Assembly: GCF_009914755.1 (NCBI RefSeq)
Contig: NC_060938.1
Origin: the human T2T-CHM13v2.0 reference genome, Homo sapiens
DNA: 64,000 bases
Reading direction: 5' to 3' (one strand)
In this document: positions 22,712 to 30,678 of the stretch, one piece after another
Layout: every line of letters starts with the position of its first letter
How positions within the stretch are numbered: position 1 is the stretch's first letter
The notes under the pieces: model-generated
Seen by the model: the letters and a program-made list of their open reading frames with translations, nothing else
Database searches by the model: none
What the model was told of the DNA's origin: nothing
Program-made: the position numbers and the translations under genes

Positions 22712-22908
22712 CTGGAAGGAATGCTGTAGTCGCTACTGTCTTCTTCTAGGTCATCTGAGGATTGAACACTTCCTGGTGCTACAAATAGTGAACTTTCTAC
22801 GTGGTCCACATGTTTCCTTTTTTCCTTTTTTTTACTACTGATTGATTCTTTCGTTACATTTTCTTCTAGGGGGTTTGCTATGTTTTCCAGGTTTGGGGAT
22901 TCCTGGGA
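22712..22908 (-). CDS. CLMN: Calmin exon 10 (197 nt; SQESPNLEN...DYSIPSR)
   Basis: ctttcag|TCC acceptor, CAG|gtattt donor; continues the frame from exon 9. Confidence 0.93.
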
Positions 22909-24577: not shown

Positions 24578-27195
24578 TAAAGGAAGGCAAGGTATCAGAG
24601 AAATGCCTCATCCCATCTCCTTGTCTGCCAGGACCCAAGACTCCCAGACCTCACCTTGGGCTCCTCATCAAACGGGCTGTACCCTCCCCCTACGCTCACC
24701 CACACGGATTGAGGCAAGGGCTGCACTTGGGAGCAAATTGCAAGGTGGGCTGGGGATCAGTGGGCAGTGCTTGCTGGGCAGGTGAGGCAGCGGACCGGAG
24801 CCAAGTGAGGCAGACGGTGTTGATTTCATTCCCACACTGCACCCAAGGGAGCTCATCTGCCCACGCTCTCACCAAGAGTGAGATCCATGTAAGATGGAGT
24901 TCAAATCTAGATCTCCCGATTCTACCACTGCAACCCAGGGCTCTTTCAGCCACACCGCAAATCACCTGTCCAAGTGCTGGACACATGCACTCTCTGCTTT
25001 TGGCAATTGCTGGAAGGAAAGCATTCGAGAACAAACTGCCACATTTGTATTTTCACAGGCCACATCCAATAGGCCAGGAGGGAGGATGCAAACCACTAAT
25101 TCATCATTTTATTTTATTTATTATTTATTTATTTATTTATTTTGAGACTTCAGAGAAGTCAGCACACAGCAGGCCATGGAAGCAAGTGGAGGACTGGGTT
25201 CCTCTCCCTGGGGGAAGAGGGGGAAGATGGCAGCCGTGGTCCCTGGCACCTGCAGAGCCATCCAGCCCTCTTCCCATCCATTCCACGGTTGGCAAACACG
25301 GAGTGTGCAGCCCTGCCCATGTGGCCCTCGGCCTGAGGATGCTGCTCCTCCTAGGGCTTAGGTAGCCACTCCTCATTGCTCAGATTTGGCAAACTGAATA
25401 AAACCAGCCCCCCACTTCTGGCCTAGCTAAAATCTGCAGTGTCTTTTAGGACGAACCTGATCCCTTATATTAATTTCCCTTATTCTCTTTATTGGCTCAA
25501 CTAATCTTCTAGGTCTTCTACCCCACTCATTCACACCAACTACTCAACTGTCAATAAACTTAAACTTAAAAAAGACTACTCGAACCAGACTTTTTCTGTA
25601 GCTCCCGCAGGGTGCAAGCCTCTCTCAATCCTCCAATCAGCTCCAGTCCTTTGGGCCCCTCACTGGGCTCTGATGAGCCAGGGCTTTGTCATGTATCTCA
25701 GTGTTTCATTTACCTTCCATTTGCTGTATGCCCCCGAAACCATCGTGTAATAAACCTTTGTCCCCTACACTGGCAGGCCCTGTCAGGCACCGTGCTGGTC
25801 TCTAGCATCCAAAGATCAATACACAAATGTCCACACTCTCTCGGGAGAGAAAAACAAAGCCCATGGAAATCAGGTAAGCACTCAAGGAGAGATTGTCAAA
25901 AATGTGATCAGCTATAGGGAGGGAGCAATGGCTCTGCCTGGGGAGGAGGTCGGAGGGCTTCTGGGAGGAGGTGCCATTTGCATTGACTTTGAAGGTTGAA
26001 TAACTGCTTGCCCAGATGGTGGGACCAGCCCAGTCACACCTGGAGGCAGAGGAGAGCCTGGATGTCTGGGGGTGTGGGAGGATGCTGGCTTGGCTAGAGG
26101 GGAGGGAGACAAAGAGGGGTGGGTGGCCAGGTTAGAGCGGGAAGAGTCTTGGAGTTCATGCTAAGACATTTAGACTTTGTCCTGGATGCAGCAGTCAGGA
26201 AGTGATAAGGTGAGACTTGTGCTTTAGGGTCATCCCTCTGCAAGCTGAGCTGGGGAGGAGGGACAGTGACAGACTGGGGAAGGGTCTGAGATAGAGGCAG
26301 AGCCAATGCAATCTGAAATAGCTGGTCACTTTCCCACCTGGCTCCTGCACTTAGGGGACCTCTACCCTTAGTCCCTCTACCCAGAACTTCCTCCCCAGTT
26401 CTAGGCTCCCCAAAACCCCCATGCAGCCTTTCTGGATCTGGGTGGGAGCCTCCTTCTGTTGAACTCCTGAATCCCTTCGCTGGGCCCATCTCTAATGGCT
26501 GAGGCCACATTCTCTCACAGTACAGTTACTGGGGACTCTGTCTCCCGCATTAGACACCGAAGGCAGGATTTTCCTTCTTTTTTTATCTTCCTGGCAGTGC
26601 CAGATGCATCGCTTTCCATGGGGTTGGATGAGTAAGCAGGTGAGCTCATGGAGGGGCTGGAGAGGCCGAGCCCAGGCCCTTCTCCTCCCTGGCTGTCTTG
26701 CCCTGGATGCCCTGTGTGCACTATATCCAGCAGGGCATGGCCAATGTGGTTTCGGACTCACCTCCTGGATCCCCAGTGCCGTAGCAGGACGCAGCACTTA
26801 TTAACGTGGCATCTGCAGGAGGAGCCTCCCCATCAGGCCAGCCGCCCAGGCACCCCCCTTCACTGATCACTCCAGTGGCCCTTTGTGAGCTACTGGGCCA
26901 GATGAAGTGGGAACACAAGTGGCAGATAAGAATGTGACCAGCTGCTCAAGCTCAGAAGAGCGCATGTCCCCTTATGCTATTTACACACCAATTTCAAACC
27001 ACAGAAACCAAAGATTAGTGCCCAACAGGCAAAAGTCCTTTAAAAAAATCAAAACTGGAGTCAAACATGAGGGCTTCTTCTGTTTCTCCTAAGTTACTGC
27101 AGAACAGGCTAGTGTTCACTAAGTGCATGCTAGATGTTAGCTACGATGACTGTTTTTTTCTTTAACTTTCTAATGCCTATGTTAGTGGTAAGTTA

Positions 27196-27390
27196 TGAGA
27201 GAACATCACATACCGGGGCCTGTGGGGGTCGGGGGCTAGGGGAGGGATAGCATTAGGAAAAATACCTAATGTAGATGATGGGTTGATGGGTGCAGCAAAC
27301 CACCATGGCACATGTATACCTATGTAACAAACCTGCACGTTCTGCACATGTACCCCAGAACTTAAAGTATAATAAAAAAATTTAAAAATA
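27196..27390 (+). mobile_element. Short L1PA 3' end
   Basis: ggagggatagcattagga...cagaacttaaagtataataaaa. Confidence 0.93.
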
Positions 27391-27492
27391 TATATATATA
27401 TATTTTTTGTTTTTCAACTTTTATTTTAGATTTGGGGGGTTCATGTGCAAGTTTGTTATGTAGGTATATTGCATGATGCTGAAGCTTGGGGT

Positions 27493-27654
27493 AATTATCT
27501 TCCAACCCCCCAAGCAGCCGTGTCAGCTTGGAGACCCTTGGGAGTCACAGCGAAGAAGGCCTGGATTTCCAGCCCTCCCCACCCCTCTCAAAGGCCTTCC
27601 ATCATTCCCCACGACCCCTTCTATTTCCCACACTATGAGGTTCCCCTGGCTGCA
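27493..27654 (+). repeat. Inverted duplication of CLMN exon 9 segment 29350-29510
   Basis: Manual alignment: 6 substitutions and one 1-nt insertion over 162 nt (~96%); ORF 27445..27669 reproduces IPHD.FYFPHYEVPLAA. Confidence 0.97.
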
Positions 27655-27737
27655 ATACCCAACGGTTAGTACACTATTCTCAGTACCTGGGTGATGGGGT
27701 CATGAAGGCTGACTCCAGCCTTGAGTTTTAAAGGACT

Positions 27738-28560
27738 TTTTATTAGTTTGTTTGTTTCTTCCTTTATTGGCTTTTTTTTCCTTTTTTTTTTTTTTTATTT
27801 TACTTTAAGTTCTGGGATACACGTACAGAGTGTGCAGGTTTGTTACATAGAAATACAAGTGTCATGGTAGTTTGCTGCACCTATCAACCCATCATCTAGG
27901 TTTTAAGGCCCGCATGCATTAGATATTTGTCCTAATGATCTCCCTCCCCTCGCCTCCCACCCCCCAACAATGTGTGTTGTTCCCCTCCCTGTGTCCATGT
28001 GTTCTCATTGTTCAACTCCCATTTATAAGTGAGGACAAGCGGTGTTTGGTTTTCTGTTCCTCTTTTAGTTTGCTGAGAATGATGGCTTCCAGCTTCATCC
28101 ATGTCCCTGCAAAGGGCATGAACTCATTCTTTTTTATGGCTGCATAGTATTCCATGGTATATATGTACCACATTTTCTTTATCCAGTCTATCACTGGGGG
28201 GCATTTGGGTTGGTTCCATGTCTTTGCTATTGTAAATAGTGTTGCAATAAACATATGTGTGCATGTATGTCTTTATAGCAGAATGATTTATATTCCTTTG
28301 GGCATATACCTCGTAATGGGATTGGTGGGTCAAATGGTATTTCTGGTTCTGAAATCAGATGGAGGAATCACCACACTGTCTTCCACAATGGTTGGACTAA
28401 TTTACAATCCCACCAATGGTGTAAAAGCATTCCTACTTCTCCACAGCCTCGCCAGCATCTATTGTTTCCTGACATAATCGCCATTCTTACTGGTGTGAGA
28501 TGGAATCTCATTGTGGTTTTGATTTGCATTTCTCTAATGATCAGTGATGGTGAGCTTTTT
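27738..28560 (-). mobile_element. L1PA (PA8-like) 3' fragment
   Basis: ORF2 tail peptides ([29 protein letters not shown]); TSD-like TTGA(G/T)TTTTAAAGGACTT at about 27721 and 28560. Confidence 0.93.
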
Positions 28561-29052
28561 TGATTTTTAAAGGACTTATTCCTGTTGGGCACTAATATTT
28601 GGTTTCTGTGTTAGAAATGTGTGTGTAACAGGATAAGGGAGATGTGCTTTCCTGATCCCACTGCCCAGGTACTGAGAATAGTATGCAACGGTTAGTTTTT
28701 CAACCCTTGCCCTGTGACAATGACTGCTTTTGAAATCATTTCTGCCCCTCCTCTGCTGGACCCTCAAAGGTGACCTCACTTGATCCTCAGAGCATCCCTG
28801 TGAGTAGGGCCAGGACTGGGGGAAAGCCAGTGAGGTGCCCGTGTGCAGGATTTCAGGAGGTGCTCACTCTCAGGTGCCAACCCTGCATTTGCCCGAGCCT
28901 CACAGTAGGTGCCTCTTTGAATTTTGCACCATAGTAGTCCCAAGGGAAGCCCCCTCATCGCTATTTTATGGAGCAAGAAGCTGAGCTTCAGACAAAGAAC
29001 TATCAAGTTTCCCAGGCAGGACCCAGGGTTCCCAAATCCCACGGTTGAGTAC

Positions 29053-30678
29053 CTGATGGCTGTCCATGGGGTCATTCTCTTTGGTCTCCCTTTGCTGGTG
29101 GTCCTCATGGGGGGCCAGTGGAGCGGGTTCTGAGGCTGGTGTGGTACCCACACCACCCCTGCTGAGATACAGCACCTGGTCGCTGGCACTGGGGAGGCTC
29201 TCTCCTGGCACCGAGGAACTGGAGCTGCTCTGAGAGCCATCGGCCTCCTCCTCCCTGGAGTCCAGGTCTGGCATATAGCCCTCTGGCTCTTCGAGATCCA
29301 TTTCTTCATTTTTTAGATCCTCCGGGTCTTCTACATAAGCCTCCAAAACTGCAGCCAGGGGAACCTCATAGTGTGGGAAATAGAAGAGGTCGTGGGGAAT
29401 GACGGAAACCTTTGAGAGGGGTGGGGAGGGCTTGAAATCCAGGCCTTCTTCGCTGTGACTCCCAAGGGTCTCCAAGCTGACACAGCTGCTTGGGGGGCTG
29501 GAAGATAATTCCTCGCCCACACCCTGGAGGTCATCGTCTTCTCCCTCTTCCTCATAATGAGGACGGGTGGACTTTCTCTTGGCCTTTTCATGCACCTCTG
29601 GCTTTTTATCCACTGGTGTCTCTTCTGGGGCTGAAGGACAGCCTTCAGCTTCTTCTCCGGAGTCCTGATGAGGTTCATGTTTGTCCATCTTAACTTGAGG
29701 CTCTGGCGAATCCTTCTTTTTGTGAGCAGATTTAATACTCCTTTTACCTAGTTTTTCAGCATGATTCTCAAAAGCCTCAGCATCCTCGTCAGGTTTTGTC
29801 TCATGAGGTGAAGGAACTTTGTTGAAAGCCTGGCTGGTAGAAGCAAAATCTATTAGGTCGCTGTTAAATTTTGAGGCTTTTAATGGGATGGCTTCAAAAT
29901 AGTCTCCCTCCTCTAAAGCTTCTACAGTCATCAGGTTAACCTTGATCTGGAAGGAATCGGCCATCACAGTATTTTCTCCTGGGGGTGAAAGAGAGTGACT
30001 TTCTTCATCGTGGCGGGCTGTACTCTCTAAAGCACCATTACAGGAAGAAGACTGAGAATTATTGTTTGTGCCCTCCACCAAAAAAATGTCACCAGCGACC
30101 TTGTCAGAGGAGGATTCTGGAATCTTCGAGGATTCCTGTTTCTGTTCCTTTTCCTCAGCAACCTCAACTGCCAAGACATGTCCATCCTGCCTCAATGATT
30201 CCTTTGCCACTCTTGGGCTCCCTTCAAAGCAAAGGGACAGGTTCTTACTGCAGAAAGGATCCTTGTAGGTGTCAGCCTCAAAGTGAACTGTTTTCTTGAT
30301 CGGCAAAGAGTTGGACCTCCCGTTCTCCTTTCTGGATGATAAAATGGAGGATTCTGGAGATGGCTCACTGATGTCGCTGGTCTTACCTGGGCCCCCTTGC
30401 AGGACCTGGTCAATAATCTGGTGCATGAACTCGGTGGAGCTGTCTGACAGCGCATGGCTGGAAACACCATCCAGGCGGAATTCCTTCATGCTCTCGGGCT
30501 TGTCACAGACAAAGACTTTGGAGGGTGGTGGGTGGCTGGTTTCATGGTTAACAGTGTAGGTACGCTCCCCATTTTCAGTCAGAACGAAGACTTTGCTCTC
30601 CTGTTCAGAAGGAGTTTCTTTGATGCGAACAAAAGTGGATTCGATAGGAACTTCTTTATCTGAATCGAAAATATCTTC
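29053..30678 (-). CDS. CLMN: Calmin exon 9 (1626 nt; acidic, serine-rich central region EDIFDSDKEV...PMDSHQ)
   Basis: Long T/GT tract then gcag|GAA acceptor; CAG|gtactc donor; core of the 625-aa ORF 28966..30843; phase 0-0. Confidence 0.95.

What the first reader, a model, noticed from the sequence alone, without database searches (positions are those of the whole stretch)
26950..28730. Complex L1 insertion made by repeated template switching, with every captured piece copied from the plus strand
Seen, after removing two younger L1s, reading the plus strand (the cDNA direction): TSD-like acgatgactgtttt (~27143), T tail, old L1 3' end to ...ttggggta (27493), inverted exon 9 piece, short L1 piece tacccaacggttagt, inverted L1 piece (27673-27703), inverted copy of the upstream flank ~26955-27065 (at 27705-27737 and 28560-28655), L1 resuming at tgatccca...caacccttgccc (28712), then TSD-like acaatgactgcttt. 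All three captured segments are inverted, so their template was plus-strand sequence and not CLMN mRNA, which would have given direct repeats. Inference: snap-back and jumping of the nascent strand during target-primed reverse transcription, or polymerase-theta/MMBIR-type repair, preserved as a fossil.
Basis: partly seen in the sequence, partly recalled or inferred. Interest (0 to 1): 0.7.

Follow-up and report, generated by a model that had tools for sequence, protein, structure and literature searches.

The report
Template-switch mosaic inside an intronic L1
A short old L1 fragment in an intron of the human CLMN gene is split at one point by about 320 bases stitched together from nearby DNA, including a backwards copy of part of the neighbouring coding exon. 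It is a well-preserved but not new kind of copying accident.

Summary
A 5'-truncated L1 3' end in minus orientation (27403-27493 plus 28653-28712) lies between 12/14-matching target-site duplications at 27143 and 28717. It is interrupted at one point, and only 4 nt of L1 are missing there.

The interruption, in order:
- an inverted copy of CLMN exon 9 (27494-27654, from 29350-29510);
- a 15-17-nt direct L1 piece;
- a 31-nt inverted L1 piece;
- an inverted copy of the single-copy upstream flank (from 26952-27063/80).

A later L1 (27739-28561, own 16-nt duplication) split the flank copy.

- "Template was the plus strand, not CLMN RNA" holds only if the plus strand was the growing strand.
- The inverted L1 piece needs an antisense-L1 template. 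A first-strand cDNA stopped at that point had not yet made one.
- The three inverted pieces lie in the order a polymerase would meet them on one strand, and three junction ends fall on one ATGAATGA motif.

My best reading is one bout of microhomology-primed serial template switching on double-stranded DNA (FoSTeS/MMBIR type, about 0.5). An event coupled to L1 integration stays possible (about 0.27), and dating cannot separate the two. This is a known kind of event and of modest interest. One by-product is a 161-nt exon-intron inverted repeat in the CLMN pre-mRNA.

The parts
26952..27080 (+). Source F: single-copy intronic flank that was copied. It is certain to 27063; 27064-27080 depends on how junction J4 is aligned.
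27143..27156 (.). Left target-site duplication of the old L1, ACGATGACTGTTTT. The inferred nick is TTTT|G.
   Evidence: (12/14 match; 17 of 2000 shuffles reach it)
27157..27200 (.). 44 nt lying inside the duplications but not L1. It is unique in the genome and unexplained (possibly a 3' transduction).
27201..27380 (+). L1#1: a later L1 3' end with a short A tail. No target-site duplication was recognised.
   Evidence: 39 non-self matches, 92-96% identity, starting at query 69-73
27381..27402 (.). A/T-rich stretch with (AT)n, between L1#1 and the old L1's tail
27403..27493 (-). Old L1: 12-nt T-rich tail plus the last ~79 nt of the 3' UTR (L1 positions 1-91), ending in GGGGTA
   Evidence: 38 genomic L1 matches, 80-89% identity; (ORF2 C-terminus lies just upstream of this 3' end type in 3 of 6 loci)
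27494..27654 (-). E': inverted copy of CLMN exon 9 positions 29350-29510
27655..27672 (.). Short direct L1 piece TACCCAACGGTTAGT (L1 positions ~125-139), with unassigned A/ATA before it and AC after it
27673..27705 (.). Inverted L1 piece (complement of L1 positions ~125 to 95), ending in TCAT(GA)
   Evidence: I6; 31 nt, 97%, to an L1 on C23, 3 nt beyond the end of that copy's first part
27706..27738 (-). F' left part: inverted copy of flank 27031-27063(80). Its last 16 nt are the left duplication of L1#2.
27739..28561 (-). L1#2: a later L1 (T-rich tail 27739-27796, 3' UTR and ORF2 C-terminal coding part) that split F'
28562..28655 (-). Right duplication of L1#2 (28562-28577) plus F' right part, an inverted copy of 26952-27034. 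The last 3 nt (TGA) are shared with the L1.
28653..28712 (-). Old L1 resumed (L1 positions 96-155), from TGATCCC to CCCTTGCCC. This is its 5'-truncated end.
28717..28730 (.). Right target-site duplication ACAATGACTGCTTT, preceded by 4 unassigned nt TGTG (28713-28716)
29350..29510 (-). Source E: the part of CLMN coding exon 9 that was copied
   Evidence: hub annotation for the exon limits

Best explanation
A 5'-truncated L1 3' end of about 155 nt inserted, in the same sense as CLMN, into intron 9 by ordinary target-primed reverse transcription. At one site in it, the tandem ATGAATGA at L1 positions 91-98, a growing DNA strand left its template and made five microhomology-primed switches before returning 4 nt further on. 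This left about 320 nt of locally templated mosaic.

Read on the plus strand, the path is:
- L1 to position 91;
- complement of exon 9, 29510 to 29350;
- L1 positions ~125-139, direct;
- complement of L1 positions ~125 to 95;
- complement of the flank, 27063/80 to 26952;
- L1 from position 96 onward.

The three inverted pieces come from one strand and lie in the order a polymerase travels along it. The one direct piece comes from the original template.

I take this as replication- or repair-type serial template switching between the two strands of an already double-stranded locus. The matching models are fork stalling and template switching, MMBIR, and 'serial replication slippage in trans'. 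The event therefore came after, or at the very end of, L1 integration. Later an L1 (L1#2) inserted into the flank copy and another (L1#1) into the old L1's tail region.

Shown: the pieces, their sources, orientation, order and junction letters. Inferred: a single event, which strand grew, the enzyme, and the timing.
For: - The sources of all pieces lie within 2.6 kb and are otherwise unique in the genome.
- L1 continuity is kept except for 4 nt. Switch-and-return models predict a return next to the point of departure (PMC5453318, passages).
- Both strands of L1 positions 95-139 were used as template, one direct and one inverted piece. That is trivial for duplex DNA.
- The L1 pieces in the insert carry the resident element's rarer variants, so the template was this element and not another L1 (column 129 A 3/26, column 153 C 5/26, column 154 G 1/26).
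- The order and orientation of the three inverted pieces fit a single pass along one strand. That is 2 of 48 possible arrangements (my count, from the coordinates).
- Three junction ends sit on ATGAATGA, and the flank copy begins and ends with letters that match it: TGA at 28653-28655 and (C)ATGA at 27701-27705.
- Junction overlaps are 1, 1-2, 2, 0-5 and 3 nt.
- Insertions templated from nearby DNA, with inverted orientation and microhomology, are what the FoSTeS and MMBIR papers are about (PMC2621351 and PMC2583991, search listing and abstract starts only).
Against: - No outgroup sequence was available, so a single event and a date after integration are not shown.
- Dating is compatible with the mosaic being as old as the L1.
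  - L1#2, which sits inside the mosaic, differs from the majority of 20 relatives at 53/758 sites (7.0%).
  - F-F' divergence per lineage is about 7%.
  - The old L1 differs at 18/139 sites (12.9%), but from a mixed family in which 5 of these sites are common variants.
- No clearly private mutation is shared by the resident and inserted L1 pieces. CAACGG occurs exactly in 5 other genomic L1s, so there is no sign of a long interval before copying.
- The microhomology total (7-13 nt over 5 junctions, about 3.3 expected by chance by my arithmetic) is only weakly above chance.
- E' is less diverged than expected: 6 changes seen against about 11 expected (Poisson p 0.07). This could mean more than one event.
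- De novo L1 insertions do sometimes carry DNA templated from near the integration site (3 cases) or inverted target DNA (3 cases). These were found among the non-canonical insertions in a set of 99 L1 and 235 pseudogene insertions (PMC11702581, passages).
Confidence: 0.5

Rival explanations
1. The mosaic was made during L1 integration, while the second (minus) strand was being synthesised. The strand primed at the right-hand nick copied the cDNA from L1 position 155 down to 96. It then jumped onto sense RNAs at the site:
- nascent CLMN pre-mRNA for the flank piece;
- L1 RNA, or its own strand by snap-back, for the L1 piece;
- pre-mRNA again for the exon piece.
It then returned to the cDNA at position 91.
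For: - All required templates exist in this model.
- The L1 lies in the same sense as CLMN (hub annotation; tail orientation).
- Flank-then-exon is the 3'-to-5' order on the pre-mRNA (coordinates).
- Purified ORF2p copies both RNA and DNA templates and makes template-jumping products (PMC10830420, passages; PMC7617806, passages).
- Dating allows the same age as the L1.
- Complex de novo insertions with local templated DNA are reported (PMC11702581).
Against: - The template jumping described for ORF2p is end-to-end, at the 5' end of a template. All departures here are internal.
- The short direct L1 piece needs one switch back to the cDNA.
- The product would be a heteroduplex with a 320-nt loop, fixed in only one daughter.
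- The reported de novo cases put the extra DNA at the junction with the reciprocal end, not inside the L1 with L1 resuming on the far side.
- Nothing distinguishes RNA from DNA templates here.
Confidence: 0.17
2. During first-strand target-primed reverse transcription, the cDNA (plus strand) left the L1 RNA at position 91. It copied single-stranded plus-strand DNA on both sides of the nick by snap-back and jumping, then rejoined the L1 RNA.
For: - The duplications enclose the whole structure.
- The flank piece lies on the same strand as the primer, 63-204 nt upstream, so an intrastrand snap-back is geometrically possible.
- The RNA-cDNA hybrid would guide the return to the point of departure.
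- Dating allows it.
Against: - The inverted L1 piece (complement of positions 125-95) needs an antisense-L1 template. A cDNA halted at position 91 has not yet made one. At most about 10 nt could come from the freshly made direct piece.
- The model can be rescued only if the cDNA first reached about position 139, snapped back, and the exon piece later replaced positions 92-118. That means two events.
- The exon template lies about 640-800 nt beyond the nick in duplex DNA.
Confidence: 0.1
3. There were two or more separate events. An older one added the inverted L1 piece and flank copy and duplicated L1 positions 96-139. A younger one put the exon copy in place of L1 positions 92-118.
For: - E'-E differ at 6/160 sites against 14/99 for F'-F (Fisher p 0.003).
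- Even with the exon copy frozen by selection, about 11 changes are expected in E' and 6 are seen (p 0.07).
- This model removes the template problem for snap-back models.
Against: - It needs a second rare event to land within 4 nt of the motif used by the first. By my estimate the chance is about 8/140.
- The lower divergence can instead come from exon constraint, from gene conversion between the inverted copies, or from chance.
- p 0.07 is not significant.
Confidence: 0.13

Closest known systems
FoSTeS / MMBIR / serial replication slippage in trans (replication-based template switching)
   Same: - Several templated segments from nearby DNA are joined in one stretch.
- Segments copied from the complementary strand are inverted.
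- Junction homology is short or absent.
- The strand returns to the original template.
   Different: - The described disease cases are mostly kilobase-to-megabase copy-number changes. Here the pieces are 15-161 nt and all lie within 2.6 kb.
- This is an old fixed event, so a single-generation origin cannot be shown.
Short template-switch mutations (four-point model; PMC5453318, passages read)
   Same: A switch-and-return event that writes a reverse-complement copy of nearby sequence and creates an inverted repeat. The return point is next to the point of departure.
   Different: That model covers one short-range switch and return. The authors state that they do not model long-range or repeated switching. 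Here there are five junctions and sources up to 1.9 kb away.
Non-canonical de novo L1 insertions with DNA templated from near the integration site, or with inverted target DNA (PMC11702581, passages read)
   Same: An L1 insertion with target-site duplications that also holds locally templated or inverted genomic DNA. Microhomology at junctions is described.
   Different: In those cases the alterations are attributed to processing of the reciprocal DNA end, that is, at the 5' junction. Here the mosaic lies inside the L1 and 60 nt of L1 resume before the duplication. The figures and supplements of that paper were not seen.
L1 twin priming (5' inversion)
   Same: An inverted L1 segment whose end (position 95) lies 4 nt from where the direct segment stops (position 91).
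   Different: The inverted segment is not next to the 5' duplication, L1 resumes in direct orientation after it, and non-L1 pieces lie between.
Polymerase-theta end joining with snap-back templated inserts (recalled, not checked in a paper here)
   Same: Microhomology-primed copying of flanking sequence in inverted orientation, with repeated attempts.
   Different: As I recall, such inserts are a few to tens of nt and templated close to the break. Here the pieces are 161 and about 107-129 nt, from up to 1.9 kb away, and lie on the strands that resection would remove.

Membership tests
Canonical L1 insertion by target-primed reverse transcription (the host element) | Target-site duplication of about 7-20 nt flanking the element | tested here: met
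   12/14 match at 27143 and 28717; 17 of 2000 shuffles reach it
Canonical L1 insertion by target-primed reverse transcription (the host element) | A-tail (T on this strand) directly between the duplication and the L1 3' end | tested here: inconclusive
   About 7-10 T follow the duplication. Then come 44 unique nt, L1#1, (AT)n and a 12-nt T-rich tract before the L1 end.
Canonical L1 insertion by target-primed reverse transcription (the host element) | The sequence is an L1 3' end | tested here: met
   38 genomic matches at 80-89% identity, out of 1685 candidates of which 40 were scored. In 3 of 6 3-kb loci the ORF2 C-terminus lies about 140 nt upstream in the right orientation. The subfamily was not assigned, because no repeat library is held.
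Twin-priming L1 inversion | The inverted 5' segment abuts the 5' duplication, and there is a single inversion junction | tested here: not met
   The inverted piece 27673-27703 is followed by the flank copy and then by direct L1 28653-28712.
RT template-switch chimaeras (concatenated cDNAs of different RNAs) | The pieces are in the same orientation as the L1 and added at its 5' end | tested here: not met
   The three large pieces are inverted, two are intronic or L1-internal, and L1 resumes after them.
FoSTeS / MMBIR / serial replication slippage in trans | Two or more junctions joining segments templated from nearby sequence | tested here: met
   Five junctions, with all sources within 26952-29510
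FoSTeS / MMBIR / serial replication slippage in trans | Microhomology at junctions | tested here: inconclusive
   Overlaps of 1, 1-2, 2, 0-5 and 3 nt. The sum is only weakly above the chance expectation of about 3.3 nt. About 7% divergence since the event blurs the junctions.
FoSTeS / MMBIR / serial replication slippage in trans | Inverted segments copied from the complementary-strand template, and return to the original template | tested here: met
   Three inverted pieces from one strand in monotonic order; return 4 nt from the point of departure
FoSTeS / MMBIR / serial replication slippage in trans | All junctions arose in one event | not testable with these tools
   This needs other primate genomes. 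The divergence of the pieces differs, which is a caution.
Polymerase-theta templated insertion | Short insert templated within the immediate flanks of the break (recalled criterion) | tested here: not met
   Pieces of 161 and about 107-129 nt come from 0.4-1.9 kb away. Only the 15- and 31-nt L1 pieces would fit.

The most novel reading that the evidence does not exclude
The mosaic was written by a reverse transcriptase (L1 ORF2p) that extended a minus-strand DNA 3' end on sense RNAs present at the locus. The end could belong to the second strand of the integrating L1 or to a later break. In this reading one nascent CLMN pre-mRNA molecule was read 3' to 5' with two skips (flank, then exon), and L1 RNA was read in between. 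The fossil would then record RNA-templated DNA synthesis from a gene's own unspliced transcript. 'All pieces inverted' would mean 'all pieces copied from sense RNA'.
Probability: 0.15. Interest if true: 0.6.

Novelty: new member of a known kind. Interest (0 to 1): 0.35.

Why it matters
The structure is an unusually legible fossil of a multi-step template-switching event. It has five junctions, every source is identified and otherwise unique in the genome, and one 8-nt motif serves as a hub. It can therefore serve as a worked example for methods that so far model only single short switches.

It also shows a trap. The strand of origin of captured pieces cannot be read off without knowing which strand was growing. 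The case for 'DNA, not RNA' therefore fails as stated.

As a by-product, the event placed a 161-nt reverse copy of coding exon 9 in the downstream intron, 1.7 kb away. In CLMN pre-mRNA the two should pair (154 of 160 aligned positions identical, duplex energy -347.5 kcal/mol). That is the geometry of an exon-intron editing duplex. It could affect A-to-I editing or splicing of exon 9. I did not test this, and I found no paper holding CLMN together with RNA editing terms (supplements were not searched).

Tried and rejected
- **Dispersed repeat or transposon terminal repeats as the origin of the flank inverted repeat.** Rejected: the flank has only its two local copies in the genome.
- **Another L1 copy as donor of the L1 pieces.** Rejected on the shared rarer variants.
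- **Shared private mutations as a clock for the time between L1 arrival and copying.**
  - The candidate CAACGG was absent from the first 26 L1 copies.
  - It occurs exactly in 5 other genomic L1s, against 0 for the reversed-pattern control. Those five are diverged L1s.
  - It is therefore probably inherited, and the clock is uninformative.
- **Dating by counts of minority and private sites and by pair divergence.** The estimates overlap, so they give no decision.
- **Source of the 44 nt at 27157-27200.**
  - There was no match in the window (word size 7, E below 0.01).
  - There was no match in the genome (1 match, itself, at E up to 10).
- **Pfam scan of three minus-strand reading frames of L1#2.** It found 0 families. 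The search against solved structures then identified ORF2p.
- **Two-ended break with resection and end joining.** Considered less likely, because the needed templates lie on the strands that resection removes and the pieces are long.
- **A whole inverted duplication of 26952-29510 followed by three deletions.** Rejected as less parsimonious: it needs four events.
- **Earlier findings of this scan.** They were not open.
- **Not possible here.** RepeatMasker-type subfamily naming and any cross-species comparison could not be done, because no repeat library and no primate genomes are held.
Full report
**Setting.** The window is T2T-CHM13 chr14:89,404,001-89,468,000 (hub note; confirmed). The finding lies in CLMN intron 9, between exon 9 (29053-30678) and exon 10 (22712-22908). 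CLMN is on the minus strand.

**Anatomy.** The sequence, a repeat scan, a window self-BLAST and pairwise alignments give the following plus-strand map.
- Single-copy flank F, 26952-27063 (possibly to 27080).
- Left target-site duplication, 27143-27156.
- 44 unexplained nt, 27157-27200.
- L1#1, 27201-27380, plus orientation.
- A/T-rich stretch, 27381-27402.
- Old L1 tail and 3' end, 27403-27493, minus orientation.
- E', 27494-27654: the reverse complement of exon 9 positions 29350-29510.
- A direct L1 piece, 27656-27670, flanked by a few unassigned letters.
- An inverted L1 piece, 27673-27703/5.
- F' left part, 27706-27738.
- L1#2, 27739-28561, minus orientation. Its T-rich tail is 27739-27796, and it has a 15/16-matching duplication at 27723-27738 and 28562-27577+1000 (that is, 28562-28577).
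- F' right part, 28578-28655.
- Old L1 resumed, 28653-28712.
- Four unassigned nt, TGTG.
- Right target-site duplication, 28717-28730.

**Is it more than chance?**
- A whole-genome search with 27400-27760 listed 41 matches (1685 candidates, 40 scored).
  - One is the query itself.
  - One is the exon, at 96% identity over query 94-255 (E 2.4e-66).
  - 38 are L1 3' ends covering only query ~1-94(118), at 80-89% identity.
  - One is a 31-nt, 97% match in the opposite orientation on C23. It starts 3 nt beyond the end of that same L1 copy's match to the first part.
- The flank (26930-27145) has 2 places in the genome out of 2 candidates: itself and the inverted copy.
- The duplications match at 12/14, and 17 of 2000 shuffles reach that.

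**The elements are L1.**
- L1#2's minus-strand frame 28015-28272 matches residues 1191-1274 of human LINE-1 ORF2p (E about 1e-42). A Pfam scan of three frames found nothing.
- For the old element only 3' UTR is left. In 3 of 6 3-kb genomic loci holding the same 3' end type (L004, L006, L007), an ORF2 C-terminus lies about 140 nt upstream in the matching orientation.
- Subfamily names could not be assigned.

**L1 continuity.**
- I aligned 26 genomic copies: 6 loci plus 20 fetched, out of the 38 L1 matches.
- Intact copies such as L018, L022 and L025 read GGGGTA-TGAA-TGATCCC. In L004 and L005 the two window parts map 4 nt apart.
- The window L1 stops at GGGGTA and resumes at TGATCCC, so the mosaic replaces 4 nt.
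- The site is a tandem ATGAATGA (L1 positions 91-98, counted from 27403).
- The inserted direct piece corresponds to positions ~125-139 and the inverted piece to positions ~125 to 95. These two stretches adjoin in an intact L1 but are in opposite orientation here.
- Both inserted pieces share the resident copy's rarer states: column 129 A (3/26), column 153 C (5/26) and column 154 G (1/26).
- They keep the majority state at the five positions where the resident copy has since changed, and they have one change of their own.
- The donor was therefore this element.

**Junctions.**
- J1, L1 to E': 1 nt shared (A).
- J2, E' to direct L1 piece: 1-2 nt.
- J3, direct to inverted L1 piece: about 2 nt, around a GTAC palindrome, with an extra AC.
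- J4, inverted L1 piece to F': 0-5 nt. There are two alignments, either (C)ATGA shared or an 8-nt gap.
- J5, F' to L1: 3 nt (TGA).
- J1, J4 and J5 all sit on the ATGAATGA motif.
- The total overlap is only weakly above the chance expectation (about 3.3 nt for five junctions, my arithmetic).

**Order.** On the plus strand the inverted pieces come from 29510-29350, then L1 positions 125-95, then 27063/80-26952. That is strictly descending, the direction a polymerase moves on that strand. Read on the minus strand the order is the mirror image and ascending. Only 2 of the 48 possible order-and-orientation arrangements fit a single pass along one strand.

The product is symmetric, however. If the minus strand was nascent, the templates are minus-sense: the minus DNA strand, CLMN pre-mRNA, or L1 RNA. 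Excluding CLMN RNA is therefore not justified, and no splice junction is present to decide.
No antisense-L1 strand with those positions exists at that moment.
- The first-strand model survives only as a two-event version. In it the cDNA reaches about position 139, snaps back, copies itself and its own upstream flank, and returns. The exon copy later replaces positions 92-118.

**Dating.**
- E'-E: 6 substitutions in 160 sites plus 1 indel. F'-F: 14 in 99 plus 5 gap columns. The Fisher test gives p 0.003.
- If the exon copy is frozen by selection, about 11 changes are expected in E' and 6 are seen (p 0.07).
- The L1 pieces differ from the resident copy at 6 of about 45 sites.
- L1#2, nested in F', differs from the majority of 20 relatives at 53/758 sites (7.0%).
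- The old L1 differs at 18/139 sites (12.9%) from a mixed set of 26 copies. Five of these sites are common family variants.
- The candidate shared private variant CAACGG occurs exactly in 5 other L1s, against 0 for the control pattern. Those five are diverged copies. It is probably inherited.
- Net result: the mosaic is older than L1#2 and not demonstrably younger than the old L1. The data cannot separate 'at integration' from 'some time after'.

**Mechanism.** All templates needed, including both strands of the L1 segment, exist once the locus is duplex DNA. The path is departure, three stretches on the opposite-strand template in travel order, one brief return to the original template, and a final return 4 nt on. 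This is what fork-stalling/template-switching, MMBIR and 'replication slippage in trans' describe.
- PMC5453318 was read in passages. It cites Chen et al. 2005, which I saw only as references, and states that its four-point model does not cover repeated or long-range switches.
- PMC2621351 and PMC2583991 were seen only as search listing and abstract starts.

I rate this reading at 0.5.

An origin coupled to integration remains open. Purified ORF2p copies DNA and RNA templates and makes template-jumping products, described as continuing on a new template after reaching the end of the first (PMC10830420, passages; PMC7617806, passages). In an inducible-L1 system, three insertions carried inverted genomic DNA at the reciprocal end and three carried DNA templated from near the integration site. 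These were in a set with 99 L1 and 235 pseudogene insertions (PMC11702581, passages; figures and supplements not seen). In those cases the extra DNA is attributed to processing of the reciprocal end. Here L1 resumes on the far side.

**Comparison and novelty.** This is a new, well-resolved example of a known kind of event. I found no paper on this locus. A search for CLMN with 'template switching' returned 1 paper, judged unrelated from its title and abstract start.

**By-product.** The event created a 161-nt exon-intron inverted repeat, 1.7 kb apart, in the CLMN pre-mRNA (duplex energy -347.5 kcal/mol). Searches for CLMN with A-to-I and recoding, and for CLMN with RNA editing and ADAR, returned 0 papers each (main texts only).

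**Verdict.** The interest is modest.

Noticed in passing
27494-27654 and 29350-29510: The intronic copy and the coding exon 9 segment form a 161-nt inverted repeat 1.7 kb apart. In CLMN pre-mRNA they should pair (duplexfold -347.5 kcal/mol). This is the geometry of an exon-intron editing duplex and could influence editing or splicing of exon 9. No paper holding CLMN with RNA-editing terms was found (0 hits twice).
   Followed up: partly
27157-27200: 44 nt lie inside the old L1's target-site duplications, between a short T run and L1#1. They are unique in the genome and have no source in the window. They could be a 3' transduction, an extra piece brought by L1#1, or another captured patch.
   Followed up: partly
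27201-27380: L1#1 (best genomic matches 92-96%) has no recognisable target-site duplication. It is followed by TTTAAAAAT and an (AT)n run.
   Followed up: no
27272-27388 and 27782-27898: The 3' ends of L1#1 and L1#2 form a 117-nt inverted repeat (87% complementary). It brackets the old L1 3' end, the exon copy and the small L1 pieces. This is a second potential hairpin in the pre-mRNA.
   Followed up: no
27494-27654 versus 27706-27738 + 28578-28655: The exon copy is less diverged from its source (6/160) than the flank copy is from its source (14/99). Even allowing for a frozen exon, about 11 changes are expected. Possible causes are later capture, gene conversion between the inverted copies, or chance (p 0.07).
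   Followed up: partly
27664-27665 and 28692-28693: The CpG in CAACGG survives in both the resident L1 and the inserted L1 piece. It is absent from the 26 most similar L1 3' ends but present exactly in 5 other, more diverged genomic L1s.
   Followed up: yes
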